Source: a virus
IMG/VR virus record: IMGVR_UViG_3300010401_000003
Location: 1-64,000 of that record
DNA: 64,000 nucleotides
Strand: one strand, 5' to 3'
The translations under genes and the position numbers were made by a program. The notes below the pieces were generated by a model. It did not search any database, was not told where the DNA came from, and saw only the letters and a list, made by a program, of their open reading frames with translations. The number at the start of each line of letters is the position of its first letter. Positions within the stretch are counted from its first letter, which is position 1. This document shows positions 25,674 through 56,796 of this stretch, in pieces.

Positions 25674-25713
25674 CTCGACCCCGAGTGTCGTTCGAGAGGC
25701 CCGGTCCGGTCAA

Positions 25714-34215: not shown

Positions 34216-35031
34216 TCACCGGGTGAGGAAGATCGCCGCGGCGGCGACGGCTAGAACGGCCAGGACGATGGGGCCCGCGCTCGAAGAGCCCTGACTCGAG
34301 CTCGGCGCGGGAGTCGGCGCCGGCGGCACCGGGAGGGTTTGCGCCGGGGGCGGCAAGGGCGCCGGGGTCACCGGGATCGGCGGCAGCGGCAGCGGCCATG
34401 GAAGCTCGGCTGGGTAGCCCGGTGGCCGCGCTGGAGGCCACGGAGAGCACGGCCAAGTGCCCGGGGGCAAAAGCGAGCATGCGGGGGGCGGAGTCGCGGG
34501 AAAAGCGCCGGTGGGGGGCCAGTCGAGGCCGGTCGCTTCCTTCCAGCCAGGCGGCTCCGGAACGCCCGTCCAATTTTGCGGCGGCGTGGTTTGCCCCAGA
34601 TGCCCGCTTTTGAGCGTCGTGACGGCGGCCCAGGACGCGCAGTCTTTCTGCCAAAATCCCGCATCAGTGACGAAGGAAAACGCCTTTTTCCAGTATCCCT
34701 CGCCCGCGTACCACGCCTCGATCGTGGTCGACGTGCCGGCGGGCAAGTGCGCTTTGACCCACTCGCACGCGGCGACGCGCGGATCTTCGGTCGGTTCGAG
34801 CTCGAGGTTTCCCGAGCTCGAGAAGCCGTTGACGACGAAGTGCCAAACCGGCCGCCTCGGCATAAGGGCCGAGGTGCGCGTCACAAACACTTGAGCGGGA
34901 TTCGGGAGGGAGGAGCGGACGAGCCTCGGGGTAGTCGTTTGCACCTGCACGCGCGAGGCGCTCGGCGCGACGACCACGGCGGAACGCACCACTTGTGCGC
35001 TCAGCGCGCCGGACCATTTCAGGAGGGCCAT
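34216..35031 (-). CDS. W-leader C-terminally anchored membrane protein, Pro/Trp-rich
   Basis: MALLKWSG.., internal GHLGQ, Pro linker, TM PIVLAVLAVAAAAIFLTR. Confidence 0.7.
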   Translation of the reverse strand: MALLKWSGALSAQVVRSAVVVAPSASRVQVQTTTPRLVRSSLPNPAQVFVTRTSALMPRRPVWHFVVNGFSSSGNLELEPTEDPRVAACEWVKAHLPAGTSTTIEAWYAGEGYWKKAFSFVTDAGFWQKDCASWAAVTTLKSGHLGQTTPPQNWTGVPEPPGWKEATGLDWPPTGAFPATPPPACSLLPPGTWPCSPWPPARPPGYPAELPWPLPLPPIPVTPAPLPPPAQTLPVPPAPTPAPSSSQGSSSAGPIVLAVLAVAAAAIFLTR

Positions 35032-35555
35032 TAACTTTTATCCTTGGCAGTCGCGAAGGTTTGCACGAAGAGCTCGACGGCGGCGCTCGCCGCAAGCGAG
35101 TACTTCATGAGGGTTTTCGGATCGTGGACGCCGACGGCAGCGAGACCGATGCCGACTTCGATCGCACGGGAGACGAACGACACGAAAAGCCGGAGCCATG
35201 CGCCGGACTTCCCCGCTCGGATTTCGTCGGCAATCTCGCCGGACGGAAGCGGCTTTTGGCCGCGGTTGATGTAGGCGAAGGTCAGAACCGACGCTTCGAT
35301 CGCGCCTCCGGCCGCGAGCGAGTATTTCACGAGGTCCGTGCCGCGCGCGCCGGCCGCTGCGAGTCCGGCTCCGATGATGAAGGACCGGCCGAAGTAGTGG
35401 AGCATCACGGCCCAAAAGGCGCCTGGCTCTTTCTCGACGAAGGCGTTGGCGCTTTCTTCCGACGGCAGCGTCACGCCCAAAAAGGCGCGATCGATCGCGC
35501 GATCGGCGACCGCGATCGCCGTCGTGTCGATTGGGGTGTTCCACCGGAGCGCCAT
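35031..35555 (-). CDS. Multi-pass membrane protein with internal duplication
   Basis: MALRW..; RSFIIGAGLAAAG..KYSLAA repeated as RAIEVGIGLAAVG..KYSLAA. Confidence 0.7.
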   Translation of the reverse strand: MALRWNTPIDTTAIAVADRAIDRAFLGVTLPSEESANAFVEKEPGAFWAVMLHYFGRSFIIGAGLAAAGARGTDLVKYSLAAGGAIEASVLTFAYINRGQKPLPSGEIADEIRAGKSGAWLRLFVSFVSRAIEVGIGLAAVGVHDPKTLMKYSLAASAAVELFVQTFATAKDKS

Positions 35556-35564
35556 GGCCTCATT

Positions 35565-35972
35565 CTACCTTGAATCCGGGTCCTTTCCGGTGGGTGTGCG
35601 GGATCGGTAGCCGGTTTCGGTGCGCTGGAGACGCACGGCGGGTTGCTCGCGGTCGCTCGAGGGGCGAAATCCTCCGAGGCGCTTGATTCCGTCGATGATC
35701 GATCGGTGTTCTTCGGCGGCGCTCTCGCCGGTCTGCTCGATGGAAGCCGTCAGCCCCTGGACGGCATTGGTCAGGGCTTGCAGCGCCTTGGTGTTGTCGC
35801 CGATCTGATCGGAGAGCTCCTTCATGCGCTCGAGCGTGCCTTCGATCAGACGCTCCTGGTTTTTGGCGGAGGACTGCACGTAGATGATCGCGATCTTTCC
35901 CGCGAACCAAATCACGACGAGCAGGACGCCGAGCGCGCCGAATTGCAGGAGCGTGGGATCGATCACGTTCAT
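35565..35972 (-). CDS. Putative holin-like protein (N-terminal TM + coiled coil)
   Basis: LLQFGALGVLLVVIWF; coupled directly downstream of the endolysin. Confidence 0.5.
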   Translation of the reverse strand: MNVIDPTLLQFGALGVLLVVIWFAGKIAIIYVQSSAKNQERLIEGTLERMKELSDQIGDNTKALQALTNAVQGLTASIEQTGESAAEEHRSIIDGIKRLGGFRPSSDREQPAVRLQRTETGYRSRTPTGKDPDSR

Positions 35973-36742
35973 GCGGCCAGCTTTTGCTTCGCGAGCTCGG
36001 CCTCTTGGATCGCGTGCCACGTGTCCATGCCGACGACGCCGTCGGGCTGTAGACCGTGATAGGCGATCTGGAACGCCTTGACCTTGGCGGCAGTCTTACT
36101 CCCGTACCAGCCGTCATCGTCGATGCCCACGACGCGCTGGACGCGCTTGACGTCTTCGCCCCGGCTCGGGATCGGCACGAGCCAGGACCACTTCAGCACG
36201 CGCGCGAGCGGATCGAAGCCGTCGGGCATCTTTTCGCTGAGTGCGACCGCGGCGCGATTGACCGCCGAGCGGAGAGCCGCGTAGTGATGCGCGACGCGCT
36301 GCGCCTTGGTGGCGCCGAAACCCCGATAGTAGTTGGTGTCGTAAAGGGCTTCGCTCACCGCATACAGATCGCCGGTTTTGGCAGCCTCGAGCACCGAGGG
36401 GCGCTTCACGTACATCACGCGCACGAGGTCGGCCCAGCCGACCTCGGGGGTTGCGTAGCGCCGGAAGCACACCTGATAGGGCACGTTCGTGCCGGTGTTG
36501 GTCGGGTTGGTGTCCGTGTAGAGAAAGCTCGTTGCCGGATTGCAAGGTGGATTGCCAGCCTGGATCGCGCCGATGTTGTTCGAGCCCGCGCCGTCGCCGT
36601 GCCAGCCGGCGCCGTAATCGGTCTCGAGCCAGCCGACACCTTGGCAGGCTTGCAAAACCGCGCGCAGCGGCTCAGCCTGGACGCCGAAGTTTTTTTCGTA
36701 GCCGCGCGTGGTGTAGAGGCGCGCGTCTTTGTGCGTCGTCAT
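35969..36742 (-). CDS. Endolysin: glucosaminidase (GH73-like) domain + peptidoglycan-binding domain
   Basis: WLETDYG..NNIGAIQ..FRRYAT; C-terminal GEDVKRVQ..DGWYGSKT..VKAFQ..GLQPDGVVGMDTW. Confidence 0.85.
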   Translation of the reverse strand: MTTHKDARLYTTRGYEKNFGVQAEPLRAVLQACQGVGWLETDYGAGWHGDGAGSNNIGAIQAGNPPCNPATSFLYTDTNPTNTGTNVPYQVCFRRYATPEVGWADLVRVMYVKRPSVLEAAKTGDLYAVSEALYDTNYYRGFGATKAQRVAHHYAALRSAVNRAAVALSEKMPDGFDPLARVLKWSWLVPIPSRGEDVKRVQRVVGIDDDGWYGSKTAAKVKAFQIAYHGLQPDGVVGMDTWHAIQEAELAKQKLAA

Positions 36743-36882
36743 CGAGCCCTCCTTGCCATTTGCCAAAACAGCGCGATGAAGCCCACGACCAAAACGGCAC
36801 CGATGAAGGTCAAGCGCTCAGAGCGCGGCAGCCGATCGAATGGCAAGCCCAGCGTCATCGGTTTTTCCCAGCGGAGTATCAT
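36739..36882 (-). CDS. 47-aa W-leader membrane peptide (absent from the ORF track)
   Basis: MILRWEKPMTLGLPFDRLPRSERLTFIGAVLVVGFIALFWQMARRAR; ATGA overlaps at both ends. Confidence 0.75.
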   Translation of the reverse strand: MILRWEKPMTLGLPFDRLPRSERLTFIGAVLVVGFIALFWQMARRAR

Positions 36883-37130
36883 CCTCCGATTGGCTTCATT
36901 TGCAGCCACTCACCCGCGGCTTTCTTGTTCGCTATCTCGAAAGAAGCCGCCTCGAAGGCGCGCACCCAAACGGCCGGATCAGTGACCTTGCCGCTGGTCA
37001 GCGCGAAGTCGAGCGCGCTCTGAAGGATCGGCATGATCGTGTCGGCGACGAGCGGCTCCTGCTCGGCGAGGATCAACAAGCGATTGACCAGGCCGAGGTA
37101 GTTTTCCGGAATGGGGACGGGGACGTTCAT
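36879..37130 (-). CDS. Small hypothetical protein
   Basis: MNVPVPIPENYLG..; ATGA overlaps. Confidence 0.6.
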   Translation of the reverse strand: MNVPVPIPENYLGLVNRLLILAEQEPLVADTIMPILQSALDFALTSGKVTDPAVWVRAFEAASFEIANKKAAGEWLQMKPIGG

Positions 37131-37320
37131 TTTTGGCACCTCACCCACTGCTTGAGCCGGTCGTGAAACTCGGCGTCGATTTCCTTCTTGGCTTCGCAGC
37201 GGTCGTCTTGCCCGTGGCACTTTTCGGCGAGGCTTGCGTGATACCAGGCGCCGACCGCGGCCATGTCTTCCACCGAGCACGCTTCATTGTGGACCGAAGC
37301 GCACGCCGAAGCGGCCATCG

Positions 37321-37611
37321 CTAGGAGCCCGATGAGGGCATGCGCACGCGATCGGTTAGAATTTTTATCTTTACCTGGACAGCTACGAAGCCGACACGGA
37401 GACCGACGTGCGGATCGCCGATCATATAGGTCACTTGGACGTAGCAGGTCGGACCCGTGTACTCGCCCGCGTCCGCTGACCATTCCCGCAGCTTCAGGAT
37501 GTCGCCGAGGAGAATCGGAGGTTGCGCTTCGCAGATCAGAAAGTGGAGACGCTTCTCGGCGATCGCCCGGTAGGTGGGGATGTGGAGTTTGATTTCGCGA
37601 AAACCGCTCAT
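37321..37611 (-). CDS. DUF3850/ASCH-PUA-like protein
   Basis: GDILKLREW...YTG....VTY. Confidence 0.7.
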   Translation of the reverse strand: MSGFREIKLHIPTYRAIAEKRLHFLICEAQPPILLGDILKLREWSADAGEYTGPTCYVQVTYMIGDPHVGLRVGFVAVQVKIKILTDRVRMPSSGS

Positions 37612-38300
37612 GCTGCACGACTCACCACTTTCGTTAGCACGTAGATCGCGCCCGCCACCAAGGCCACCAATCCGATCGCTGCGCCCGCACTGGCCCCCTG
37701 GGCAACACCGCCAGATCCGCCGCCACTCGGCATCGGCTCGTTCCGCGCTTTGGTGATCGCCTGGAGGTTCTTGGTCATGGCGGCAATGTGTTTGCTCAGC
37801 GCGAGCTCGAAGTAGTGCGACTCGCGGAGCGTCTTCGAGAAATTCGCGATGTCGCCCATGTTGGCCGCCGCGAGCACCTTCGGACGCTGCTTGTAGAGTA
37901 CCTGGATGAAGTGCGTGAATCCCTCATCGGGCGAAGCGTACTTGCGAAAGCATGCCTGGTAGGCTGTGCTTCCATGCTCGGGACCGCGATGGTCGGTGGC
38001 CTCGAAGCAGCTGCTCGAGCAGGGCGGCAGACCGCACTGCACCGCGCCCATGTTCCAGGTGTTGCAAGTGGTCGTGCCAGCGGGGATGTTTTTGTAGCAG
38101 GCTTGTCCGTAGTAGGACTCGCCGCGCGAAACGGCTTGCGCGAATTGGGCCTCTAGTAACGTCGGCGTTCGGCCGAAAACGACCTTGAACGCGTTTTCGA
38201 TGAAGGTGCGGGCGGAAACGTCGCTTATTTGTGCCGCACCGAGGCCGACTTGGCGCGCGCCAAGCACTCTCACTTCACCGAGCCAAAGAAGCTTCGACAT
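37608..38300 (-). CDS. Membrane-anchored glucosaminidase-like muralytic enzyme (probably virion-associated)
   Basis: Paralog of the endolysin catalytic domain (GESYYG..NMGAVQ..FRKYAS); W...GLGA leader; C-terminal TM. Confidence 0.8.
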   Translation of the reverse strand: MSKLLWLGEVRVLGARQVGLGAAQISDVSARTFIENAFKVVFGRTPTLLEAQFAQAVSRGESYYGQACYKNIPAGTTTCNTWNMGAVQCGLPPCSSSCFEATDHRGPEHGSTAYQACFRKYASPDEGFTHFIQVLYKQRPKVLAAANMGDIANFSKTLRESHYFELALSKHIAAMTKNLQAITKARNEPMPSGGGSGGVAQGASAGAAIGLVALVAGAIYVLTKVVSRAA

Positions 38301-39949
38301 TAGCGCCGACGCTTTCTGCCGCGGGCTCGTCGCTTGTGCGCGCGTTGGGCGGAGCGCTGCACTTTCGGCGAGCGATAGCCCAGTCGCACTACGCGCTCAT
38401 GGGGCGCTGGACCTTGCGGCAAATCGCGGATTCCTGCCTCGGTCGGTCCGCGCCGCAGTCGCCGCGACACCATTGTGGCTGCCGCATCTTGAGAAGGCGC
38501 TCCGCTGACTCGATAAACGGTTCCGTCATGGTTGTCATAGACGTAATACACGCCAGGCGGCGTCTGTGGAGATTCGGCTTCGTCCAGTGGCGTCTTCTTG
38601 AACCAACCGGACCAGAAGGCGTTCTCGTTGCTCGGATTCGAACGTGCCGCTGGCCGCTTCGGCGTGGCCGCTGTAGCACCGCTACTTCCGCCACCGAATA
38701 TCGCCGCGCCGAGACCGAGGAGCGCGAGCGCCCCGACCGCAATCAGGATGCCAGTGTTTCCGCCACTTTCCGAGCTCGAAGGCGTTCCCCCGCCCGGGAT
38801 CGGAGTCGGAGGGATCGGCAGGGGCGTCACGACGCAGAGCTTGCTCACCGGATCCCAATGGAAGCCGGGATCGCACTGCGTGACGTCGCTCGGATTTCCC
38901 GGAACGGGAGTCGGCACGCGCGGAAGCGGCACTTGCGGAGTCGGCGCCGACGGAACCGGAGCGGATGGCGCCGGCGCGCTCGGAAATCCGGGGTTCGGGA
39001 GCTGTCCGGGGACGATCGTGATGCCCTTGGCCTGCGCCCAGACTTTCAACGAGTAAAGGCCCTGGGTCGTCAGGTCTTGCCACGCGATTTCGTTTTTCGT
39101 GGTGGGATTCGGGAGCGGTGGCGCCCATCCGGATTTGTTCCACCAGTTGTAAAAGTTCGCGAGGGTCCAGCCGTCGCGATCGCCCCAGACGAGCGAAATG
39201 TCGGCCGGCTGAAGACCATAGCTGCCGATCGAATTGTTTCCGTCGGTTCCGTTCCATGCGGCGAGAATCGCCTTGGCCATCGCGACGTCGGCGTCGGGAA
39301 GAGCGCCGAGATCGCCGGGACCTTGGATGGTCACGGGAGGCCGATAGCGCGAGGTCGATGGAAAGATCGGAGCGATCGTTGTGAGAGGCTGGCGATATCC
39401 CGGGGGAGTTGGCATCGGTGCCGGGAGAGTGGGCAGGTAGGGAGGAATGCACCCGAAGCTGCCGTCGTCATGGACGATCTTCGAGTAGCCCGGAGGGCAC
39501 GTGGTTTTGATTTGGGTGCCGGTGCTCAGAACTTCGTTGAGACTCTTCGAGACAGGGTCATAGCAATAGTAGTTAGCATTCCCACTGCCGGCGCTTTTGC
39601 TGAAATCGAAGGGTTCGAAGTTGGCGCCTTTCGGCACGAATTCGAGCGCGCACACCTTGAGCGGCTTCGATGTTTTCTTGGACCATTGCTCATAGAGCGC
39701 GCGCATGCGCTGTACGGCGACCCAGCGCAAAACCGTGTTGAAGGTGATTCCGCTCTGAAGTGGGAAATCTTCATGCACATAGTCATCGCCACCCGGGAGC
39801 GGGAAGACGGGGAATGGAGCCGCTGCGTTGAAAACGTAAATCTTCCACGCACCGCTCGTGTTCCACCACTGCCACTCGGCTGGCGTCATGCCGAGCTGCC
39901 CCGGCGCGCCGAGCACTTGGACCTTTTCTTCTAGCCATCGCATCGACAT
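38300..39949 (-). CDS. W-leader multi-domain membrane protein with basic tail
   Basis: MSMRWLEEKVQVLGAPGQLG; internal GDLGAL precedes a domain paralogous to 39956..40576; TM; SNPSNENA; Arg tail. Confidence 0.75.
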   Translation of the reverse strand: MSMRWLEEKVQVLGAPGQLGMTPAEWQWWNTSGAWKIYVFNAAAPFPVFPLPGGDDYVHEDFPLQSGITFNTVLRWVAVQRMRALYEQWSKKTSKPLKVCALEFVPKGANFEPFDFSKSAGSGNANYYCYDPVSKSLNEVLSTGTQIKTTCPPGYSKIVHDDGSFGCIPPYLPTLPAPMPTPPGYRQPLTTIAPIFPSTSRYRPPVTIQGPGDLGALPDADVAMAKAILAAWNGTDGNNSIGSYGLQPADISLVWGDRDGWTLANFYNWWNKSGWAPPLPNPTTKNEIAWQDLTTQGLYSLKVWAQAKGITIVPGQLPNPGFPSAPAPSAPVPSAPTPQVPLPRVPTPVPGNPSDVTQCDPGFHWDPVSKLCVVTPLPIPPTPIPGGGTPSSSESGGNTGILIAVGALALLGLGAAIFGGGSSGATAATPKRPAARSNPSNENAFWSGWFKKTPLDEAESPQTPPGVYYVYDNHDGTVYRVSGAPSQDAAATMVSRRLRRGPTEAGIRDLPQGPAPHERVVRLGYRSPKVQRSAQRAHKRRARGRKRRR

Positions 39950-39955
39950 GGAACA

Positions 39956-40576
39956 TCACCTCAAGAGCAGGGCAGCAAGACCGAGCACCGCGCCGACGAT
40001 CGCAAGGACGCCCACCGCCCCAATGCCCTCCGAGCTCGGCGCTGACGTGATCGGCGCGGGCGGCGCCGGTAGGGGCGTCTGATTCGTCGGAACCGGAACC
40101 GGGATCGGTACGGGCACCGGAACTGGTTGAGGTTGCGTGCGCGGACCGCAGGCCGCGAGACAGGTCGCGAGATTCGCGAGATCGCCCGCGTACTTCTGTT
40201 GACACGCAAGCGCGCAGTTGACGGATGGCGCCGGAACTTGGCCGGGATTGATGACGCCCTTTTCCACGCCCCATTGCAGAAGCGCCTGGAGATGCTCGGG
40301 CTTCAGATCGATCCAGGTGTACGAGCCGGGCGCGGGGAAGACCGCGGGCTGCTTGTTGTTGGCCTTCCACCAATTGGCGAAGCAGGCGAGCGCGTTTCCA
40401 TCGCGCGTTTTCCACGTGGTCGGATCGACGTCGTCCGGCTCGAGGCCGTAGCCGGTGACGCAATTGTTGCCGTCGGTTGCCACGAACGAAGCGAGCAACG
40501 CCTTGGCTTGCGCGTTCGAGGGCGCGTCGAGAGCACCCAAGAAGTCGACTTTCTTTTCTAGCCAGCGCATGCCCAT
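39956..40576 (-). CDS. W-leader C-terminally anchored membrane protein
   Basis: MGMRWLEKKVDFLGAL; Cys helical hairpin; PV repeat; TM. Confidence 0.75.
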   Translation of the reverse strand: MGMRWLEKKVDFLGALDAPSNAQAKALLASFVATDGNNCVTGYGLEPDDVDPTTWKTRDGNALACFANWWKANNKQPAVFPAPGSYTWIDLKPEHLQALLQWGVEKGVINPGQVPAPSVNCALACQQKYAGDLANLATCLAACGPRTQPQPVPVPVPIPVPVPTNQTPLPAPPAPITSAPSSEGIGAVGVLAIVGAVLGLAALLLR

Positions 40577-40579
40577 GAC

Positions 40580-41158
40580 TCACCTCGAGAGAAAGAATGC
40601 CGCGAGGCCGATCACGATACCCGCGATCGCGAGCGCCACGCCGGTGCCGCCGCCGGACGCCGCGGGCGTCGTAGAGCTCGCGGGCGGCGTCGTCGTGCCA
40701 CCACCGCCGCCAGATCCGGGACGGGGGATTTTCTTACCGCCGGGCGTGCCTTGCGTCGTGGGACCGAAGCCGCACTTCTGGCCGCACTGAATCGCGGCGG
40801 CTTTGAGCGCCGCTTCGTCGGTGCCTACCGCTTCTTGCTGGAAGGCGTCCATACATGCGTTGAAGCACGGGCTCACCTTTGCGCCGACCTTCTGCATTTG
40901 CTCGTGGTCGACCAAGATCCCCGCGCCGCACGCTTCGGTCATGCACTGGTTCACGCACGGCCAAATCAGAAGTCCGCCCCAGCCGCCGATGCCGATCGCG
41001 GTGCAGATCGCGTAGCAGGCGTCCTGGTTATAGAGGTTTGCCTGGCACGCGGAAGTGGTCGGCTCGGTGAAAAGTCCGACGCCAACAGGCGCAGCAAGGC
41101 GGCCGTTCCAGCGAACTGAGGAACGCGGGCCGACCTGGCCGCGCCAAGCTACGATCAC
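40580..41158 (-). CDS. W-leader Cys-rich C-terminally anchored protein
   Basis: GTG start IVAWRGQVG..GRLAAPVGVG; CxxxC repeats; TM. Confidence 0.7.
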   Translation of the reverse strand: MIVAWRGQVGPRSSVRWNGRLAAPVGVGLFTEPTTSACQANLYNQDACYAICTAIGIGGWGGLLIWPCVNQCMTEACGAGILVDHEQMQKVGAKVSPCFNACMDAFQQEAVGTDEAALKAAAIQCGQKCGFGPTTQGTPGGKKIPRPGSGGGGGTTTPPASSTTPAASGGGTGVALAIAGIVIGLAAFFLSR

Positions 41159-41526
41159 GGGTTTGCTCTCATGTGCCCGCGTCCGCCCGCGAACATGATC
41201 GCCGCGGCGACCGCGAGCGCTCCGCCGAGCAACCACACGATCACAGGGACGCCCGCCGTCGCCGACGAGCTCGCGGGCGCGGGGGCCGGCGCGGGAGTCG
41301 GGGTCGGCGTCGGCGCGGGGACCGGAATGCCGGCGTTGATGACTTCGCCGATTTTAGCGGGGAGCTCCGCCGGGGTGAGGCCGCACGCCTTGAGGCACGG
41401 CTCGATGCACGTGAGGAACGGGCGAGCGTTGGCGCACGATTGCGCGCAAAGCGCCTCGCAGTTCGAGAGGGCGCCGAGGCGCCCGTTCGGGCGGAGGGCG
41501 ACTTGTCCTGACCAGGATTGGATCAC
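41155..41526 (-). CDS. W-leader Cys-rich C-terminally anchored protein
   Basis: MIQSWSGQVALRPNGRLGA; CxxxCxxxC; PT/PA linker; TM; ends RANP. Confidence 0.7.
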   Translation of the reverse strand: MIQSWSGQVALRPNGRLGALSNCEALCAQSCANARPFLTCIEPCLKACGLTPAELPAKIGEVINAGIPVPAPTPTPTPAPAPAPASSSATAGVPVIVWLLGGALAVAAAIMFAGGRGHMRANP

Positions 41527-42734
41527 GCTGCCGCCCTTCTACGCTTCGGGGCCGAGCGCCGACGCTTTTGCGAACGAGCTCGCGCCGCGCGCGCGGGCTG
41601 CTTCGGGAGGTTCGGGGCACGCATGCCCAAGAAGATCGCGCCGATGGCCGCGCCGATGCCGAGTAGCCAACCCCATCCGGAGCCGCCACCGATCCCGGCG
41701 GTGGTTGCCGTGGATTCGCAAGATCCGTCAGCTGCGCGCTTGTAACCCGTCGGGCACTTGTCGACGCACGATCCGGACACGCACTCCTTGGTCGGATCGG
41801 TGCACGGCGTTGCGGGCGTGCACTCCGGAGCGGGCGGCGGAGGAGCACCACCGCCGCTTCCCGCTGCGGCTTCGCACTCGTTCAGTTGCTGTTGGATTTG
41901 GTTGACCTGCGCTTGCGCTGCGTTTCGCGCTGACACTTGTCCGGCATATTGCGCGTCGAGAGCTTGGCCGGTGGCCGTGTCTCCGTTTTGATACGCCGCG
42001 ATGCGCGCGGCATCGAGGTCGACGATGTAGCTCTTGATTCCCGCCAGTTTTGCCTTAGCGGCCTGCAACTGAGCATTTAGCGCGTCGCACGCTTCGTTTT
42101 GCCCGAGCCGCCCCTCGCCCGGACCGAACAAGAACGGAACCGGCGGGCGCGTGATGCGCGTCTGAAATTGCGTGGTCGTGACGGTCGTTCCGCCGAACGG
42201 CTGAGTCCCGAACGGGCTCAGCGGGATGCTTCGCCGAAAGAACGACGTGAACGGGAACGGATAGACGAACGGGATCGGATTGGGCGGAGGCGGCTGGTAG
42301 TTTCCGATCGTCGTCTTGACGCCGTCGTAGGTGCAGTACGAGACCGGCTGCATCAGGATGTTGGTCTTGGTGTACGAGCCGCACACGGCCTTGTATTTCC
42401 AGACCGGAGTGGCGCCCGGTGGAATGCCGCCCGGCTGCCACGAGTTGAACGCCTGCGTGATGCCCGCGTAGCCCTGCGCGTGCGTTCGCAGATGCGGCCC
42501 GCTGGTGCCGACGAGCTGGCCGTTGTTGTAAAAGTAGTAGGTCCAGTACTCGAGCTCGTAAGGCGCACCGACGCCTTCCTTCGGTCCGAGCAACTGCTGA
42601 GGCCCGCCGGCTCCGCCGCGATCGTGCAAGAACACCGGCCGGAGATTCGGCGGCATCACCGCGCTGCCGAAGTACGCTCGCGCGCTCGGTCCGGTTTGCG
42701 TCTTCACCGGGTCAATCCATTTCACGAGCGCCAT
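41523..42734 (-). CDS. W-leader membrane protein with coiled coil, EGF-like Cys domain and Arg tail
   Basis: MALVKWIDP; internal GRLGQ; TM WGWLLGIGAAIGAIFLG; RRRSAPKRRR. Confidence 0.7.
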   Translation of the reverse strand: MALVKWIDPVKTQTGPSARAYFGSAVMPPNLRPVFLHDRGGAGGPQQLLGPKEGVGAPYELEYWTYYFYNNGQLVGTSGPHLRTHAQGYAGITQAFNSWQPGGIPPGATPVWKYKAVCGSYTKTNILMQPVSYCTYDGVKTTIGNYQPPPPNPIPFVYPFPFTSFFRRSIPLSPFGTQPFGGTTVTTTQFQTRITRPPVPFLFGPGEGRLGQNEACDALNAQLQAAKAKLAGIKSYIVDLDAARIAAYQNGDTATGQALDAQYAGQVSARNAAQAQVNQIQQQLNECEAAAGSGGGAPPPPAPECTPATPCTDPTKECVSGSCVDKCPTGYKRAADGSCESTATTAGIGGGSGWGWLLGIGAAIGAIFLGMRAPNLPKQPARAARARSQKRRRSAPKRRRAAA

Positions 42735-43624: not shown

Positions 43625-43638
43625 GGGCTATTCCCCTT

Positions 43639-44352
43639 TCAGGGGCAGCCCGGCCCCAAATCCCTCGGAGCGAAAACGCCCTCTGCCTGGAGCTCGTCGA
43701 TGATCTGCGTGAAGTCGCAGCCGTTGTAGAGACCGGTCGGAAGCCGCGTCCCGTGAAAGGTGATAATCGCCTCGGTCGGTACTTCGTCGGCTTGAAGAGT
43801 GCGGAGGTTCGTGAAGAGGGCGTCGAAGGTGGCTGAGCACTTCAAGACCAGGCCGGCGGGGCAGACGCACTCGAAGACCGCTTCGATGTTCTCGAGGGGG
43901 GTCGGCTCGGTGTTGATCAGGTAGTTGCAGAACGAGTGGATGATGAGCGAGTTCAGGTCGATGTTGGGGTTCAGGCGATTGAAGTAATCGGACTGAGCCT
44001 TCCAGATCGATCCTGCCGCGAAGTTCGGGCGGCGCACCGTGTAGGTGACGCGCCGGATCCAAATGTCGCTTTCGACCGTGCCGAGCATCTGACCCAGCAC
44101 GGGCTTGTCCGCCGTGGTCGCATCCCAACGCGCTTTCACGCTGAGCATCACCCAGCCGTTGGTCTCGGTCACCAGCCAGCCGTCGCCAGCCATGCGGTAG
44201 CCGAGACCCTTTTTCGCGGCCTGCAAGAGCGTGTGCGCCAGCCGTGGCTCTTGGAGGGCGATCCCTCCGAGCCATTGCGGCGCCGCCGCTCGGCGCGCCC
44301 GGGCGAGCGCGGCCGAAACCTCGTCGCCCGGAGCTGTGTTGGGTGCGTTCAC
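43639..44352 (-). CDS. Beta-rich structural protein, candidate second jelly-roll capsid protein
   Basis: DIWIRRVTYTV, GLVLKCSATFDALF, AIITFHG strands. Confidence 0.4.
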   Translation of the reverse strand: MNAPNTAPGDEVSAALARARRAAAPQWLGGIALQEPRLAHTLLQAAKKGLGYRMAGDGWLVTETNGWVMLSVKARWDATTADKPVLGQMLGTVESDIWIRRVTYTVRRPNFAAGSIWKAQSDYFNRLNPNIDLNSLIIHSFCNYLINTEPTPLENIEAVFECVCPAGLVLKCSATFDALFTNLRTLQADEVPTEAIITFHGTRLPTGLYNGCDFTQIIDELQAEGVFAPRDLGPGCP

Positions 44353-44393
44353 TGGAGTGTGGCCTTGCCGATGACCTTACTTACCCGACGACC

Positions 44394-45578
44394 TTACTTC
44401 GCCGAGGCGAGGAGGTTGTCGAATTGCTTCTTGACGTCTTCCGGCAGGCCGTTCAGGGCGCCGCGGTTCGCGATGAGCTTGCTCGTCAGGTACGAGCCGA
44501 TGCCCACCTGCTGGTAGAGCATTTCGAGCGCGCTTCCCGAGGTCACTCCCGCGAGGTACTCCACGCAAGCCGCCGGCACGAGGTCGTAGCCCGCGAGGAC
44601 CGCGCCGATCGTGAAACAGCCACCCGGCACCGTGTAGATCCCGGCGTTGCCCGAGCCGCACTCGAGCGTGTCCGTGAACTGGCTGCTCGGCAGAGTCGGA
44701 GTGGCGCAGTCGAGGACCGCGTCGCGCCGCATCGCCGGGAAGAAGCAGCAATCACCCTCGACGCGCGTGAAACGGACGTCGATGGTCATGCCGGGCAACC
44801 AAAGGATCGGGAACGGCAGCGGATAGCAGCGGTTCGAGATGCCCTTGGTGTGCTGGCTTCCCCACATCGCTTCCGCAGTCGGCGCGGGCATGCACTCGCT
44901 ACCAGCGGCGGTGTTCTGGGGGATGAATTGCTTGTTGCAACCCTTGGCCACGAGCACGTCGTTGACGTCGCGATTGAACGGAGTCGTCGAGATGAGCGAG
45001 GTGCCGCTCCCGACGAATTCCATGGTCGCTCCGACGAGACCCATGACGTGGGCCGCTTCCTCGAAAATCTGGAAATGCCGTCCGATGAACATCGAGACGC
45101 GGTACGCCTGGAAGAACTTCTCGATGATGTTCCAGGTCGGGTAACCCCATGCGAGCACCGCGTTGTGCTCGTCGAGCGCGCCGGTGCATCCGGTCACGCA
45201 AGGGGTCGGTCCGCCCGAGGCGACCACGTTCTTCATGACGCCCGTGAGCGCGAAGCCCTGGCCCTCTGCGGTCGCCAAGATGCCGAAGCCCATCATGAGG
45301 AACGGAGTCTCGACGGTCGTCCCGCGCGAGAGATTGGTCTGGCGACCCGGGCACGCTTGCGGCTGGTCGAGCGTGAAGAGTCGGATTTCCCCGGGGAATG
45401 CCGCGTCGAATTCCTCGGGCGTCATCGGCAGTTGGTACTGCGCGATGTCGTAGAGGCGAGCGGTCAAGCGCGAGAGCGGGCTCTTGCCGGCCGTGATCTG
45501 GCCGAGGATGCCGCCCTTGTGGGTCGGCTCGATCTGCGAAAACTGCTTGTGGTCTGCCTTGATAACTTCGGTCGCCAT
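44394..45578 (-). CDS. Candidate major capsid protein (jelly-roll type)
   Basis: Strongly biased codon usage; beta-strand pattern LYD..IRLFT..TNL..PFLMMGFGI and YPLPFPILWLPGMTIDVRF; no HK97 features recognised; inferred from position and pattern. Confidence 0.5.
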   Translation of the reverse strand: MATEVIKADHKQFSQIEPTHKGGILGQITAGKSPLSRLTARLYDIAQYQLPMTPEEFDAAFPGEIRLFTLDQPQACPGRQTNLSRGTTVETPFLMMGFGILATAEGQGFALTGVMKNVVASGGPTPCVTGCTGALDEHNAVLAWGYPTWNIIEKFFQAYRVSMFIGRHFQIFEEAAHVMGLVGATMEFVGSGTSLISTTPFNRDVNDVLVAKGCNKQFIPQNTAAGSECMPAPTAEAMWGSQHTKGISNRCYPLPFPILWLPGMTIDVRFTRVEGDCCFFPAMRRDAVLDCATPTLPSSQFTDTLECGSGNAGIYTVPGGCFTIGAVLAGYDLVPAACVEYLAGVTSGSALEMLYQQVGIGSYLTSKLIANRGALNGLPEDVKKQFDNLLASAK

Positions 45579-45680
45579 TTTCTTTATCGATCCTTTTTCA
45601 GCGGGGCCGGCCGGTGTACGTGCGCGGGCGACCCCGATGAATAAACGTGTTGGAGCAAACTTTTTGGTGAATTTTCGCGA

Positions 45681-47531: not shown

Positions 47532-47542
47532 GCACGAAAAGA

Positions 47543-48130
47543 TTATGGCCAGCGAAATCCGTGCTCGTCAACAATACAGCCGCGCGGAAGCGGCAAACGC
47601 CACCCCAAAGTGCGCTTGCTATAACGCACCTCAACGGGCGGATCGTATTCGTGCTCGAACGGCTTGTCGAAGCCCGGACGCCGATAGCGAATGAGACGCA
47701 CGCGCGCTAAGCGCGCCCACGGTCCCTCGGGAATTTCCACCGATCCGTAAGTGAGAGGAAGTGGGCGGTCGTTCTGATCGACGAAGTACTTTTCTGCGTC
47801 ATCGAGCACGTCGCCAGGTGCGTTTTTCGCACCTCCTCCGCGCGCTCGAACAATATACAAATCGCACCGGTCCAAAAGTGCGCCGGTCGTGTCGTGCACG
47901 AGCACATACCCCCGCGGGAAGGTCACGTCGGCCGCCGGCATGCGCGGTTCCCAGAAGACTTCGCGCTCTCCGTTTGGACCGGTCGCGCGCACGATGCGGC
48001 GCGCGCCGGAGTTTCGCACGCGTTCGACGGACACGAATTGGATGTTCGTGCCGCGCACGATCATGTGGTGCGTGTAACACGCACCGGTCGTGCAATCTTC
48101 AGCTTCGACGATGCGGCCGGAGTCCGTCAT
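47543..48130 (-). CDS. Hypothetical protein in the structural operon
   Basis: TAATG-coupled ORF. Confidence 0.6.
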   Translation of the reverse strand: MTDSGRIVEAEDCTTGACYTHHMIVRGTNIQFVSVERVRNSGARRIVRATGPNGEREVFWEPRMPAADVTFPRGYVLVHDTTGALLDRCDLYIVRARGGGAKNAPGDVLDDAEKYFVDQNDRPLPLTYGSVEIPEGPWARLARVRLIRYRRPGFDKPFEHEYDPPVEVRYSKRTLGWRLPLPRGCIVDEHGFRWP

Positions 48131-48996
48131 TAGGCCGCTCGCGCCAATTGACGACTCGGCGGAAGCGCGCGCGAGCTCGAGCGCGCACCCGCAGGCGGCA
48201 CCAAGCGCACGAGTGCGTAAAGCACACCGAGACCGAGCGCGACCAGCGCGACGGTCTTAATCGTGTTCGTGATGTCGGTAGTGGGCTGACTGCCGGCTTT
48301 GATTTGCTCGACCTTCTGCGCGCGCACCGCAGCGGCGCCGGTGTAGATCGATTGATTGAGCTTCGCGGCTTGGTCGGGCGTGCATTTTCCGGTCGTCACG
48401 CACTCGTAGGATTTTTCCGCGATCGTGCGCATCGTCTTTTGCTCGGCGACGTCAGTGATGTTGTTGACCGCTTTCTCGACCGCCCAGTACGCGGGCAGAG
48501 CGAGCACCGTGACGCCCAAGGTGGTAGCCCACACGATCGCGGGCACTCCGACTTGCCCTTGCACGTGCGTTTGCTCACCCGCGGGATTCACGATGATCGG
48601 CACGTCGCCATTGAGCGCCAAGCGCACGACGTCCGATGAGAGCCCCTCGATTTCGAATTGATTCTTTTCCGTGTTCCAAGCGACTTTGCGCTTTCCGGCG
48701 ATCGCGTCGTTTAGGGCGTCGGTGATGATCTTCACCATCGCCATCGCGTCGACTGCGTTCTGATCGAGATCCGAAGACCACGCCGACGCGCTCGACATGC
48801 CCGGGACGGCGCCACCCTCCGGGCCGGCGCCGTCGACCAGGAACGGCAGGCCGAGATTCTGCCGGACCGTCTTTAGCCCGGTGTAGGCGGCGACAGCTCG
48901 CGTCCACGAGCCTTGCAGGTTGTCGCGGAGCGCCGTGAGGTACGCTTCCCAGGCTTTTTCGTCGGCCGGCTGGCCCAGCCATCGCAGCTTTTTCAT
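48130..48996 (-). CDS. W-leader membrane protein (2 TM)
   Basis: MKKLRWLGQ; TMs AIVWATTLGVTVLALPAYW and VALVALGLGVLYALV. Confidence 0.7.
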   Translation of the reverse strand: MKKLRWLGQPADEKAWEAYLTALRDNLQGSWTRAVAAYTGLKTVRQNLGLPFLVDGAGPEGGAVPGMSSASAWSSDLDQNAVDAMAMVKIITDALNDAIAGKRKVAWNTEKNQFEIEGLSSDVVRLALNGDVPIIVNPAGEQTHVQGQVGVPAIVWATTLGVTVLALPAYWAVEKAVNNITDVAEQKTMRTIAEKSYECVTTGKCTPDQAAKLNQSIYTGAAAVRAQKVEQIKAGSQPTTDITNTIKTVALVALGLGVLYALVRLVPPAGARSSSRALPPSRQLARAA

Positions 48997-49164
48997 TTGT
49001 TGAGTCTCGCTCGGTAGATGTTGATTGCCAGGGAAGTCGCTGAAATCAGCAGGCCCACGATCGCAAACCACTCGATCCGCGAGAGCCTATGGCCGTCGCC
49101 CGGGATTTCCTCGGGAGCGGCGGAAACCTGACCGGACCAGCGCAAAATGGCCATCGCTCGCCCT

Positions 49165-50157
49165 CTAGAGTAGCGCCCAAATCACGAGCGCGACAATGCC
49201 GGCGCCGATCGCCAAGGGCGCGATGCTCGATCCGCCGCCTCCGCCGCCGCTCCCGGCGGCGGCGACATTCTTGAAGTCGATCTGCGATTTCAGCTTTTCG
49301 ATGAGCGGCTCCATCGATTTGCTCGGGAGCTCCGTCAAGCACTGCGGATCTTCACCGTGCATGTTGCTCGGCGTCTTCGGGTCGAAGACGTTGAAGAACC
49401 CCGCTGGGCAGTCGCCCTTACTCTGAAACCAGCTCGAGGCATTCTCCATGCGCCCGACCGCGAACCAATCGATCGGCTCGCCGGGCTTGGCGATGGGGCC
49501 GAAGTTACCGTTGAAGTAGGTCAGCCAAACGTAGTCCTTGCAGGTCAGCTTTTCGTTGACGATGCCGAGCTTCTTGGCCACCGCGCACTCGTCGAGCGCC
49601 GTCTTCGTCAACTCGAACTTCTCATACGCTTGCGCCGCCGCGTAGCGCTCGGCGCTCGGCGCAAACTTCGAGAACACCGGCGCCGGTGGCAAGCCCGCTT
49701 CAGTCAGCGCCACGTCGGAAGCGCCTTGGCTGATGGCCAGATCGCGGAGCGTCAAATACGACTTGACGGCAAGGATGCCCTTGGCCGCGCGCTTGGCACG
49801 CGGGGCGGTGAAGTCGTTCCAGGTTTCCGAAACCAAGTCCTCCATGGTCGATCCCTTGGCCACAGGGATCGATTTTCCGATGAAGCCGCCGATGATGCCG
49901 CCCAAGATCGCGCAGCCGCCCGCGACTGGAGCAGTCACTACGAAGGCCGAGCACGCCGCAGCGCCACCAATTGCGCCGCCCACCTCGCCGTAGGCTTTCA
50001 GATCCGCCGAGCTCGTGCCGCCCTTCCGCTCGATGATCTCTCTCGTGAGCGGATTGGTTGCCTTGTCCATTCCGGAATACGCGCCGAGGCCGACGGGCCG
50101 CCTCGAGCTCGGCGAAAGCACGAGCGGGACAGACGCATTCCAGATAAGGGCGGACAT
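49165..50157 (-). CDS. W-leader C-terminally anchored membrane protein
   Basis: MSALIWN..PVGLGA; Gly-zipper segment; Gly linker; terminal TM. Confidence 0.7.
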   Translation of the reverse strand: MSALIWNASVPLVLSPSSRRPVGLGAYSGMDKATNPLTREIIERKGGTSSADLKAYGEVGGAIGGAAACSAFVVTAPVAGGCAILGGIIGGFIGKSIPVAKGSTMEDLVSETWNDFTAPRAKRAAKGILAVKSYLTLRDLAISQGASDVALTEAGLPPAPVFSKFAPSAERYAAAQAYEKFELTKTALDECAVAKKLGIVNEKLTCKDYVWLTYFNGNFGPIAKPGEPIDWFAVGRMENASSWFQSKGDCPAGFFNVFDPKTPSNMHGEDPQCLTELPSKSMEPLIEKLKSQIDFKNVAAAGSGGGGGGSSIAPLAIGAGIVALVIWALL

Positions 50158-56783: not shown

Positions 56784-56796
56784 GGATCCGCGGTGC

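What the first reader, a model, noticed from the sequence alone, without database searches (positions are those of the whole stretch)
34216..50157. Shared N-terminal Mx(2-4)W...LG leader on ~11 membrane proteins lacking Sec signals: candidate virus-specific export/maturation tag
Seen: MSALIW..VGLGA (50157), MKKLRWLGQ (48996), MALVKW (42734), MIQSW..GRLGA (41526), MIVAW..VGVG (41158), MGMRW..FLGA (40576), MSMRW..VLGA..QLG (39949), MSKLLWLG..VLGA..GLGA (38300), MILRW..TLGL (36882), MALRW (35555), MALLKW (35031). Most continue with unrelated, often Cys-rich or muralytic domains, a Pro/Gly linker, a C-terminal TM and basic residues. Known: the positive-inside rule puts the N-domains outside the cytoplasm, yet no hydrophobic signal peptide is present. 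Inference: the leader is a common sorting or cleavage signal, analogous to double-glycine leaders or adenoviral precursor processing, that loads diverse cargo onto the virion membrane.
Basis: partly seen in the sequence, partly recalled or inferred. Interest (0 to 1): 0.9.

Follow-up and report, generated by a model that had tools for sequence, protein, structure and literature searches.

The report
Shared Trp leader on virion proteins
A dozen otherwise unrelated membrane proteins of an uncultured tailless bacterial virus begin with the same short tryptophan tag, beside a conserved protease-like enzyme; it is probably an address-and-clip signal for building the virus particle, but no cutting has been shown.

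Summary
All 11 listed starts, plus a twelfth at 49154, begin with M-x(2-4)-W. That is 13 of 23 genes in the block (counting the enzyme gene) against 1 of 82 elsewhere in the genome.

The window belongs to a complete 73.6-kb uncultured virus with a jelly-roll capsid protein. Relatives whose capsid protein or 288-aa protein is only 35-45% identical keep the tag, mostly as W-L-G-Q/S/A.

A related hydrophobic-Leu-Gly-x element occurs in four other places:
- ahead of the folded part of the capsid proteins;
- between repeated domains in a relative;
- between the catalytic domain and the membrane anchor of the operon-leading enzyme in 11 of the 12 homologues that carry an anchor;
- only in membrane-anchored members of one enzyme family (7 of 9, against 0 of 3 without an anchor).

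The enzyme has a transglutaminase/papain-like fold and an invariant Cys-His-Asp triad. It is homologous to virion protein gp34 of Salisaeta phage SSIP-1.

Best reading (about 0.45): a propeptide made of a Trp address tag plus Leu-Gly cut sites for a virion maturation protease. Cleavage is inferred, not shown. The "export signal" argument is not needed, because most of these proteins are tail-anchored.

The scan reached the same reading earlier on other genomes (e1-5923934, e1-5324357 and others).

The parts
50177..50923 (-). Operon-leading enzyme (248 aa) with a transglutaminase/papain-like fold; the candidate maturation protease. Starts MPAPW. A disordered tail carries the invariant W230.
   Evidence: AF2 model pLDDT 85.2. 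Foldseek probability 1.0 to putative Cys proteases 3kd4 and 3isr, PNGase, TG2/TG3 and LapG, with TM-scores of only 0.3-0.4. C112, H145, D160 and W230 are invariant in 26 sequences. Homologous to SSIP-1 gp34: hhalign probability 97%, E 9e-11. No Pfam hit at E<=5.
49165..50157 (-). 330-aa membrane protein. Leader MSALIW...PVGLGA occupies about 50080-50157. The hydrophobic segment ends at the C-terminus.
   Evidence: Homologues in L009 and L010 start MITWLG....
48993..49154 (-). 53-aa tail-anchored microprotein with leader MAILRWSGQV (49125-49154).
   Evidence: In 12 of 52 enzyme homologues a tail with a membrane anchor is fused to the enzyme, and in 6 of these W-L-G sits before the anchor. Separate genes in L009 and L010 start MGTVRAVTWLGQ and MASSRVTWLGQ.
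48130..48996 (-). 288-aa membrane protein with leader MKKLRWLGQ (48970-48996).
   Evidence: 27-sequence alignment at 35-89% identity: L7 is invariant and W-L-G-Q-like in most, with W 3-11 residues from the Met.
41523..42734 (-). 403-aa protein with leader MALVKW (about 42690-42734), a Cys-rich C-terminal part, a hydrophobic segment and a 32-residue basic tail.
   Evidence: The L005 counterpart starts MNAKIKW and holds two further W-L-G copies.
41155..41526 (-). 123-aa Cys-rich tail-anchored protein with a GTG start. Leader MIQSWSGQV...GRLGA (about 41470-41526).
40580..41158 (-). 192-aa Cys-rich tail-anchored protein with a GTG start. Leader MIVAWRGQV...VRWNGRL (about 41075-41158).
   Evidence: The orthologue in L002 matches 18 of 20 residues in the leader but 44% in the rest.
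39956..40576 (-). 206-aa tail-anchored protein with leader MGMRWLEKKVDFLGA (40532-40576).
   Evidence: The L013 counterpart starts MQVQWVSKKKVSWLGAVSRLGEV, so both the tag and the Leu-Gly site are kept.
38300..39949 (-). 549-aa protein with leader MSMRWLEEKVQVLGAPGQLGM (39887-39949). An internal copy of the 206-aa protein's domain follows ...DLGAL.
37608..38300 (-). 230-aa glucosaminidase-like tail-anchored protein. Leader MSKLLWLGEVRVLGARQVGLGA (38235-38300) holds three Leu-Gly sites.
   Evidence: an N-terminal extension is present in 7 of 9 anchored family members and in 0 of 3 members that carry PG_binding_1 instead of an anchor.
36739..36882 (-). 47-aa tail-anchored microprotein with leader MILRWEKPMTLGL (36844-36882).
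   Evidence: 100% identical in L002.
35031..35555 (-). 174-aa membrane protein with leader MALRW...RAFLGV (about 35472-35555).
34216..35031 (-). 271-aa Pro-rich tail-anchored protein with leader MALLKWSGA (35005-35031).
44394..45578 (-). Major capsid protein candidate (394 aa, jelly-roll). I-L-G-Q at residues 24-27 lies at the border between the disordered arm and the folded part.
   Evidence: AF2 pLDDT 85.6, residues 1-22 below 50. Weak matches to capsid proteins of SPV1, HHIV-2, HCIV-1, PRD1 P3, P23-77 and FLiP, Z 5-5.9. h-G-Q-h lies in the N-terminal arm of 14 of 53 family members against 1.2 expected.
43639..44352 (-). 237-aa conserved capsid-module protein. PQWLGG at residue 27 comes just before the conserved part.
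   Evidence: The counterpart positions read WLGD (L006), HLGE (L005), TLGQ (L009) and TFGE (L010).

Best explanation
The 12 genes encode proteins of the internal membrane of an uncultured ~74-kb tailless bacterial virus with a jelly-roll capsid. Most are tail-anchored.

Each begins with a short propeptide built from two linear motifs:
- a Trp tag directly after the Met (M-x2-4-W, often with a basic residue before W);
- one to three hydrophobic-Leu-Gly-(Gln/Ala/Ser/Glu) sites, either merged with the tag (W-L-G-Q) or within about 25 residues of it, always just ahead of the conserved domain.

The most likely mechanism is as follows. The operon-leading Cys-His-Asp enzyme is a virion maturation protease. 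It sits on the same (cytoplasmic, capsid-facing) side of the membrane as the N-domains. It recognises and cuts at the Leu-Gly sites, and the Trp tag serves as an address or exosite that brings diverse cargo to the assembling particle.

The same sites would then trim the N-terminal arms of the capsid proteins, separate the domains of polyprotein-like cargo, and free the enzyme from its own anchor in relatives.

Shown here: the motifs, their enrichment and conservation, their positions, the enzyme's fold and triad, the synteny, and the link between leader and membrane anchor.

Inferred: that cutting occurs, where exactly the bond is broken, and what the tag binds.
For: 1. Enrichment: 13 of 23 block genes against 1 of 82 outside. 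The signal is at protein level, not nucleotide level.

2. Conservation across a virus lineage.
- The 288-aa family keeps x(3-11)-W-L-G-Q in most of 27 sequences, with L7 invariant.
- L009 has 7 ORFs that start with W-L-G-[RQSA] after 2-7 residues.
- L010 has 3 of 3 ORFs after the enzyme with such a start.
- L005 and L013 have variants.
- The core order enzyme-288-195-616-capsid-237-296 is kept in L005, L009 and L010.

3. The motif is not tied to the free N-terminus.
- It lies at three repeat boundaries inside the L009 628-aa protein.
- It lies at the C-terminal end of the enzyme in L009 (...VWWLGRRG).
- It lies between enzyme core and anchor in 11 of the 12 homologues with an anchor, 6 of them as strict W-L-G.
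- It occurs in tandem copies, for example three in the 38300 leader and MITWLGRPRWLGQQ in L009.

4. It lies 10 or fewer residues upstream of the conserved domain in the 288-, 230-, 206- and 237-aa families and in the capsid protein. It is enriched in the capsid protein's N-terminal arm: 14 of 53 against 1.2 expected.

5. Enzyme.
- C112, H145 and D160 are invariant, with a transglutaminase/papain-like fold.
- It is the best-conserved protein of the module: 46-78% identity over 52 homologues, against 21-75% for the capsid protein.
- A mini-intein sits right at the catalytic Cys in 8 of 52 homologues, which marks a critical site.
- The homologue in the cultured phage SSIP-1 is annotated as a structural protein and is tail-anchored.

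6. A transglutaminase-fold Cys-His-Asp enzyme that clips the N-terminal part of its substrate is precedented by LapG (passages of PMC3032545).

7. The leader goes with the anchor: 7 of 9 anchored against 0 of 3 non-anchored members of the 230-aa family.

8. In four diverged orthologue pairs with L002, the first 20 residues are 74 of 80 identical while the rest is 44-74% identical.
Against: - There is no direct evidence of cleavage from any source I could reach. The SSIP-1 paper, which may hold N-terminal sequences, is not held.
- In the simplest leaders a cut after W-L-G would remove only 6-8 residues, which is hard to rationalise.
- The residue after Gly varies (Q, A, E, S, L, V). Four window leaders (42734, 36882, 35555, 50157) have W-x-x-P instead of W-x-G, with the Leu-Gly much further on or weak.
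- The window's own enzyme reads ...VVWKPG, not W-L-G.
- No Pfam protease or transglutaminase model matches the enzyme, and the Foldseek TM-scores are modest.
- The fold also includes cross-linking, amidase and acyl-transfer enzymes.
- The homologues compared are related, so the counts across them are not independent.
- The N-terminal conservation against L002 extends beyond the leader (60 identical residues in the 42734 protein), so it could reflect recombination blocks.
Confidence: 0.45

Rival explanations
1. Uncleaved docking or sorting tag. The Trp/Leu-Gly peptide stays on the mature protein and binds a common receptor: the inner face of the capsid, an assembly factor, or the enzyme acting as a non-catalytic adaptor. 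By this route only tagged viral membrane proteins are captured into the membrane patch that becomes the virion's inner membrane.
For: - Unrelated cargo shares the tag, and it is linked to the membrane anchor.
- The capsid protein and the 237-aa protein carry a similar element in their N-terminal arms.
- According to the scan's unchecked note e1-6190756, the same genome reuses a shared N-terminal module on five fibre genes. If so, shared docking modules are part of this virus's style.
Against: - Twelve or more different proteins would compete for one site.
- Tandem copies, copies at repeat boundaries and copies at the enzyme-anchor junction fit cut sites better than a single docking peptide.
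- It leaves the invariant catalytic triad without a role.
Confidence: 0.2
2. Cross-linking tag. The enzyme is a true transglutaminase, and the Gln in W-L-G-Q and h-G-Q-h is the acyl donor. It becomes covalently linked to Lys residues, stitching membrane proteins and capsid together.
For: - The fold matches TG2 and TG3 as well as proteases.
- Gln follows Gly in 5 of 12 window leaders, in most of the 288-aa family and in 14 of 53 capsid arms.
Against: - Gln is replaced by A, S, E, T, V or L in many orthologous positions. A Gln donor could not tolerate this.
- The conserved residues are W, L and G.
Confidence: 0.1
3. Sec-independent export or secretion leader. The tag takes the N-domains across the cytoplasmic membrane.
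For: - Cys-rich cargo, a CAP domain (L009:20206, Pfam E 3e-26) and cell-wall-type cargo would suit an extracytoplasmic location.
- Four proteins have basic tails of 22-131 residues after the hydrophobic segment.
Against: - Eight of 12 proteins have the tail-anchored layout, with tails of 14 or fewer residues.
- No exporter or C39 peptidase was seen among the 30 window proteins scanned.
- The motif also sits in capsid proteins and inside the soluble enzyme.
- The distance from the N-terminus is variable.
Confidence: 0.05
4. No function of its own. The shared start is a relic of gene duplication or recombination, or a nucleotide-level translation signal.
For: - Some cargo genes are paralogues (206/549 aa; 123/192 aa).
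- Many starts are translationally coupled.
Against: - Codons differ synonymously between leaders.
- The cargo domains are unrelated.
- The motif persists in relatives whose capsid or 288-aa protein is only 35-45% identical, and in internal and C-terminal positions.
- It is absent from the non-anchored paralogue.
Confidence: 0.03

Closest known systems
Phage T4 capsid targeting sequence (CTS) of the internal proteins, with the prohead protease
   Same: A short N-terminal peptide is the only feature shared by a diverse set of virion cargo proteins, and it directs them into the assembling particle (passages of PMC3012670). That the T4 peptide is removed by the prohead protease is recalled, not read here.
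   Different: - Here the capsid protein is jelly-roll rather than the tailed-phage type.
- The cargo is membrane-anchored rather than soluble inside the head.
- The candidate enzyme is a Cys-His-Asp transglutaminase-fold protein.
- The motif is W / Leu-Gly, with no conserved acidic residue at the site.
Adenovirus protease (adenain) and its consensus sites in virion precursor proteins (recalled knowledge; no paper read here)
   Same: One virion cysteine protease and one short Gly-containing consensus site are spread over many structural precursors of a jelly-roll-capsid virus, near their N- and C-termini and sometimes in tandem.
   Different: - The enzyme here has the residue order Cys-His-Asp and matches transglutaminase-like folds, not the adenain type.
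- The site has Leu before Gly plus a Trp tag.
- The substrates are mostly tail-anchored membrane proteins.
- The host is bacterial.
LapG / BTLCP bacterial transglutaminase-like cysteine proteinases
   Same: A transglutaminase-like fold with a Cys-His-Asp triad. LapG cuts the N-terminal part of its substrate LapA at a conserved small-residue site, between Ala108 and Ala109 (passages of PMC3032545). LapG structures are among the Foldseek matches.
   Different: - LapG is periplasmic, has a single adhesin substrate and is regulated by c-di-GMP.
- There is no sequence-level family match here.
- Here there are many substrates in a virus particle.
[quoted passage not shown]
   Same: - gp34 is a homologue of the enzyme: tblastn 24% identity over 87% of the query, E 5e-5; hhalign probability 97%.
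- The record annotates it as a structural protein, and it has a C-terminal hydrophobic anchor.
- Many neighbouring SSIP-1 ORFs are tail-anchored and hold G-[LM]-G within their first 40 residues.
- SSIP-1 is a tailless phage with an internal membrane (passages of PMC6356626).
   Different: - SSIP-1 is 43.8 kb and is described as having two capsid protein types.
- No match to the window's capsid protein was found in the phage collection; hhalign to gp45 and gp46 gave probability 8% or less.
- Its tags are G-L/M-G without the N-terminal Trp.
Double-glycine bacteriocin leaders with a C39 peptidase exporter (recalled knowledge)
   Same: A short leader that ends in Gly plus a small residue, removed by a papain-like cysteine peptidase.
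   Different: - No ABC exporter or C39 domain was seen among the 30 window proteins scanned.
- The leaders here are on large membrane-anchored proteins, not secreted peptides.

Membership tests
T4-type capsid targeting sequence system | A short N-terminal peptide shared by otherwise unrelated virion cargo proteins | tested here: met
   12 proteins with unrelated downstream parts share M-x2-4-W. The feature is kept in relatives.
T4-type capsid targeting sequence system | The peptide is removed by the virion protease after incorporation | not testable with these tools
   This needs N-terminal proteomics of particles.
T4-type capsid targeting sequence system | The protease and capsid are of the tailed-phage type | tested here: not met
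   The only protease-like gene found has a Cys-His-Asp transglutaminase fold. The capsid candidate gives jelly-roll matches. Only 30 window proteins were scanned with Pfam.
Adenain-type maturation system | The protease belongs to the adenain family (catalytic residue order His...Cys, as recalled) | tested here: not met
   The invariant residues come in the order C112, H145, D160. The Foldseek matches are transglutaminase-like proteins.
Adenain-type maturation system | One consensus site recurs in several virion precursors | tested here: inconclusive
   A recurrent h-L-G-x site exists. It differs from the recalled adenovirus pattern, and no cutting has been shown.
Transglutaminase-like superfamily, including BTLCP/LapG proteases | A Cys-His-Asp triad in that order on a transglutaminase/papain-like core | tested here: met
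   C112, H145 and D160 are invariant in 26 sequences. Foldseek probability is 0.99-1.0 to 3kd4, 3isr, PNGase, TG2, TG3 and LapG, with TM-scores of 0.3-0.4. The Atlas feature search hits Transglut_core clusters at 0.96.
Transglutaminase-like superfamily, including BTLCP/LapG proteases | A match to the curated sequence models (Pfam Transglut_core, Peptidase_C93) | tested here: not met
   No such hit at E<=0.01 or at E<=5. No PDB sequence match either.
Transglutaminase-like superfamily, including BTLCP/LapG proteases | Peptidase activity | not testable with these tools
   This needs an enzyme assay.
SSIP-1 gp34-like virion enzymes | Sequence homology to gp34, including the catalytic motifs | tested here: met
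   The alignment covers the D-C-D-G, H-V and D-P motifs.
SSIP-1 gp34-like virion enzymes | A C-terminal membrane anchor on the enzyme | tested here: not met
   The tail of the window copy (248 aa) has no hydrophobic segment. 12 of 52 homologues and gp34 itself have one.
Tail-anchored membrane proteins | A hydrophobic segment at the extreme C-terminus with a short tail and no N-terminal signal peptide | tested here: met
   This holds for 8 of 12 leader proteins, with tails of 0-14 residues. The other four have tails of 22-131 residues. This is a crude hydropathy scan, not a trained predictor.
Double-glycine leader / C39 exporter systems | A C39 peptidase-ABC exporter is encoded alongside | tested here: inconclusive
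   None was seen among the 30 window proteins scanned. Not every gene was scanned.

The most novel reading that the evidence does not exclude
These viruses use a dedicated address-and-clip system. A Trp tag selects which tail-anchored proteins enter the virion's inner membrane. A transglutaminase-fold cysteine protease, unrelated to adenain and to tailed-phage prohead proteases, then matures membrane cargo, capsid arms and itself at Leu-Gly sites. This would be the first maturation protease and the first membrane-protein sorting signal described for prokaryotic jelly-roll viruses with an internal membrane. It would be testable in the cultured relative SSIP-1.
Probability: 0.35. Interest if true: 0.8.

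Novelty: new variant of a known kind. Interest (0 to 1): 0.6.

Why it matters
How phages with an internal membrane choose the proteins of that membrane and exclude host proteins is, to my knowledge, not understood. No maturation protease has been described for bacterial jelly-roll viruses in the papers I could search. Searches found nothing on this system, but the SSIP-1 paper itself is not held.

A shared tag together with a conserved virion enzyme gives a concrete, mutable handle on both questions. It would also be a convergent counterpart of adenovirus and T4 maturation built from a different enzyme fold.

The lineage is sizeable:
- 78 capsid-protein clusters at 50% identity;
- 52 enzyme homologues;
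- repeated independent sightings in this scan.

Tried and rejected
- Chance: rejected.
- A nucleotide-level signal: rejected, because codons vary synonymously.
- Pure paralogy: rejected, because the cargo is unrelated and a non-anchored paralogue lacks the leader.
- Pfam and PHROGs gave nothing for 9 of the 10 structural proteins first scanned. Nothing above the curated cut-offs turned up for the leader proteins at E<=5.
- Capsid protein against the phage collection: no match.
- Capsid family against SSIP-1 gp45 and gp46: hhalign probability 7.9% and 0.6%, so no link is established.
- Enzyme against PDB sequences: nothing.
- Complex prediction of the enzyme (A5) with residues 1-40 of the 288-aa family (A4): verdict 'no answer', score 0.00. 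This is neither for nor against binding.
- Foldseek and VIA matches of the capsid model are weak (E 5e-4 at best, Z<=5.9). I call it jelly-roll, and do not say whether it is single or double.
- Host: the only hint is that the same 73,663-bp contig sits in a Gemmatimonadaceae MAG bin, which is weak.
- Literature: searches found no description of this enzyme-plus-tag system. Searches gave only review passages on SSIP-1. Supplements are closed and were not consulted. The SSIP-1 paper and its supplement may hold N-terminal sequences that bear directly on cleavage.

Full report
**What the window is.** The window is the first 64 kb of a 73,644-bp IMG/VR virus record with direct terminal repeats, rated 100% complete. 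GC content is about 63%. A contig of 73,663 bp whose capsid gene is 100% identical lies in a Gemmatimonadaceae MAG bin. That is only a weak host hint.

Genes 50923 to 33990 on the minus strand form a tightly packed morphogenesis block. The 394-aa protein (44394-45578) folds with confidence (pLDDT 85.6). It gives weak matches to jelly-roll capsid proteins, several of them from viruses with an internal membrane: SPV1, HHIV-2, HCIV-1, PRD1 P3, P23-77 and FLiP, with Foldseek E 5e-4 at best and VIA Z 5.0-5.9. Its family has 78 cluster representatives in a 1.84-billion-protein library. It has no match among 50,697 phage records.

**The observation.**
A twelfth, 49154 (MAILRWSGQV, 53 aa), belongs to the set.
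- Two starts are GTG. Four lie inside longer mechanical ORFs.
- All 12 have a GAGG-type site or a 1-4-nt start/stop overlap with the preceding gene.
- W at residue 4-6 occurs in 13 of 23 block genes, counting the enzyme's MPAPW, against 1 of 82 genes elsewhere (Fisher 1e-9). Allowing three start choices per outside gene gives 9 of 82 (1.5e-5).
- W-[LS]-G occurs 6 times in the first 12 residues against 0.25 expected.
- Codons for the shared residues differ synonymously, so selection acts on the peptide.

**Anatomy of the leader.** It has two parts.

The first part is a Trp tag right after the Met, often h-(R/K)-W.

The second part is one to three hydrophobic-Leu-Gly-(Q/A/S/E) sites. They are either merged with the tag (MKKLRWLGQ, MAILRWSGQ) or lie 8-25 residues on (MGMRWLEKKVDFLGA; MSKLLWLGEVRVLGARQVGLGA).

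L013 shows that the two parts are separable. Its enzyme is 47% identical, and its leaders read x-V-T-W-V-K and MQVQWVSKKKVSWLGAVSRLGEV. The latter aligns with the window's 206-aa leader in both parts.

**Conservation in relatives.**
- The 288-aa family (27 sequences, 35-89% identity) keeps W-L-G-Q-like residues. L7 is invariant, and W sits 3 to 11 residues from the Met.
- L009's 288-aa protein is 37% identical to the window's. The locus has seven ORFs that start MITWLG, MGTVRAVTWLGQ, MSAIQWLGQ, MTQIQWLGS, MVEWLGQ, MAIQWLGS and MNLTWLGA. At least five of them end in a hydrophobic anchor, and one carries a CAP domain.
- In L010, all 3 ORFs after the enzyme have the motif.
- L005, whose capsid protein is 45% identical, has variants.
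- The core order enzyme-288-195-616-capsid-237-296 is kept in L005, L009 and L010.
- Against the close relative L002, four diverged orthologue pairs are 74 of 80 identical in the first 20 residues and 44-74% identical elsewhere. In one pair the identical stretch runs 60 residues, so recombination blocks may contribute.

**The motif is not bound to the N-terminus.**
- Inside the L009 628-aa protein...GELGQVTLRSP...PVQWLGQVTLKSP and ...DGALGQASAP open successive repeats.
- The window's 549-aa protein has ...DLGAL in front of an internal copy of the domain that follows ...FLGAL in the 206-aa protein.
- The 237-aa capsid-module protein has PQWLGG at residue 27, just before its conserved part. The same position reads WLGD, HLGE, TLGQ and TFGE in four relatives.
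- The capsid protein has I-L-G-Q at residues 24-27, at the edge of its disordered arm.
- h-G-Q-h occurs in the arm of 14 of 53 capsid family members, against 1.2 expected (maximum 5 in 500 shuffles). The looser h-G-[QSTEDNAK] occurs in 33 of 53 against 14.4 expected. These sequences are related, so the counts are not independent.

**The enzyme.**
- Gene 50177-50923 has no Pfam, PHROG or PDB sequence match.
- An alignment of 26 homologues shows invariant C112 (in D-C-D), H145, D160 and W230.
- The AF2 model (pLDDT 85.2) matches transglutaminase-like putative cysteine proteases, PNGase, TG2/TG3 and LapG at Foldseek probability 0.99-1.0, with TM-scores of only 0.3-0.4.
- A protein-language-model search also points to Transglut_core clusters.
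- It is more conserved than the capsid protein: 46-78% over 52 homologues against 21-75%.
- In 8 of 52 homologues a 144-163-residue insert sits exactly before the catalytic Cys. In L009 the insert is larger and hits the Hint and LAGLIDADG models below their cut-offs. Inteins favour critical sites.
- W230 lies in a tail that the model leaves disordered (pLDDT below 50 at 219-225 and 229-235). It is therefore a linear motif rather than part of the fold.
- In 12 of 52 homologues the tail runs on into a membrane anchor. In 11 of those 12 a W-L-G or h-L-G-x element lies between core and anchor.
- In L009 the enzyme simply ends ...VWWLGRRG.
- The only cultured relative is SSIP-1. Its gp34 is homologous, is annotated as a structural protein and is tail-anchored.

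**Link to the membrane anchor.** All 12 leader proteins have a hydrophobic segment, and in 8 of them at most 14 residues follow it. The Fisher p of 2e-4 in that call counted the enzyme as a leader protein and used a crude threshold.

In the 230-aa glucosaminidase-like family, an N-terminal extension of 20-35 residues is present in 7 of 9 anchored members. It is absent in 0 of 3 members that carry PG_binding_1 instead of an anchor, including the window's own paralogue 35969-36766.

**Interpretation.** The pattern has the following elements:
- a short linear motif near N-termini at variable distance from the Met;
- tandem copies;
- copies at domain junctions and in the enzyme's own tail;
- a position always just ahead of folded domains;
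- co-inheritance with a conserved, virion-associated Cys-His-Asp enzyme.

This is what a maturation protease and its cut sites look like. I therefore favour a propeptide with an address tag plus cut sites (0.45). It works like T4's capsid targeting sequence (passages of PMC3012670) and like adenovirus precursor processing (recalled). The enzyme is of the kind that LapG represents (passages of PMC3032545).

The tail-anchored layout places the N-domains and the enzyme on the same side of the membrane.

Rival readings are an uncleaved docking tag (0.2), a transglutaminase Gln-donor tag (0.1; weakened because Gln is often replaced), an export leader (0.05) and a relic or nucleotide-level signal (0.03).

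Nothing here shows a broken peptide bond. Removing only 6-8 residues from the simplest leaders is puzzling. Four window leaders have W-x-x-P rather than W-x-G.

**Relation to earlier scan notes.** Follow-up reports on other genomes reached the same reading: e1-5923934 on a related virus, and e1-5324357, e1-5360286, e1-3269656 and others. I took the SSIP-1 gp34 lead from e1-5360286 and tested it here.

**Limits.**
- The SSIP-1 paper is not held, and supplements are closed.
- The complex prediction gave no verdict.

Noticed in passing
L005:4299-5537; L009:7253-9133; proteins P0127-P0130, P0132, P0134, P0150, P0153: An intein-like insert of 144-163 aa sits directly in front of the catalytic Cys of the transglutaminase-like enzyme in 8 of 52 homologues. 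In L009 the insert is larger and gives sub-threshold Hint (E 4.7e-5) and LAGLIDADG_3 hits.
   Followed up: partly
window 48130-48996, 41523-42734, 37608-38300, 35969-36766 (C-terminal ends): These four proteins end in Ala-Ala after a basic stretch. In the 288-aa family 17 of 27 members end in Ala-Ala, against 1.4% expected from composition. This may be a C-terminal degron or processing signal; it is unexplained.
   Followed up: partly
window 35969-36766: A leaderless, anchorless paralogue of the 230-aa leader protein. It carries PG_binding_1 (E 4e-10) in place of the membrane anchor, so it is probably a soluble lysis enzyme.
   Followed up: partly
window 21797-31774: A sugar-modification cluster: GDP-mannose 4,6-dehydratase (E 2e-107), a C-methyltransferase (E 3e-48), a 1069-aa multi-glycosyltransferase and two group-1 glycosyltransferase-like genes. 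It suggests glycosylated virion or host-surface components.
   Followed up: no
window 45681-47531: A 616-aa protein with long Arg/Lys runs and a hydrophobic segment, conserved next to the capsid gene in L005, L006, L009 and L010. It is a candidate DNA-condensing membrane protein.
   Followed up: no
window 37321-37611: A DUF3850 domain protein (E 3e-7) lies inside the structural block. A homologue lies elsewhere in L009.
   Followed up: no
window 55254-56828 and 58950-60137: A weak match to a replication-protein domain (PF23343, E 4e-4, below its cut-off) and a clear C-5 cytosine DNA methylase (E 3e-39). No packaging ATPase was seen among the 30 proteins scanned.
   Followed up: no
L007 (contig DASRAP010000433.1): A 73,663-bp contig with a 100% identical capsid gene is binned in a Gemmatimonadaceae MAG. 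This is a possible host hint or a binning artefact.
   Followed up: no
L011:20636-21268 (SSIP-1 gp45) against window 44394-45578: The capsid family's conserved L-P-L-T-x-x-E-F motif also appears near the start of SSIP-1 gp45. The hhalign probability is only 7.9%, so no relationship is established.
   Followed up: partly
window 38300-39949 and 39956-40576; 41155-41526 and 40580-41158: Neighbouring cargo genes are partial paralogues (a shared domain after ...LGAL; a shared Cys-rich part). They are the most divergent genes against the close relative L002, at 44-74% identity. This part of the array is fast-evolving.
   Followed up: partly
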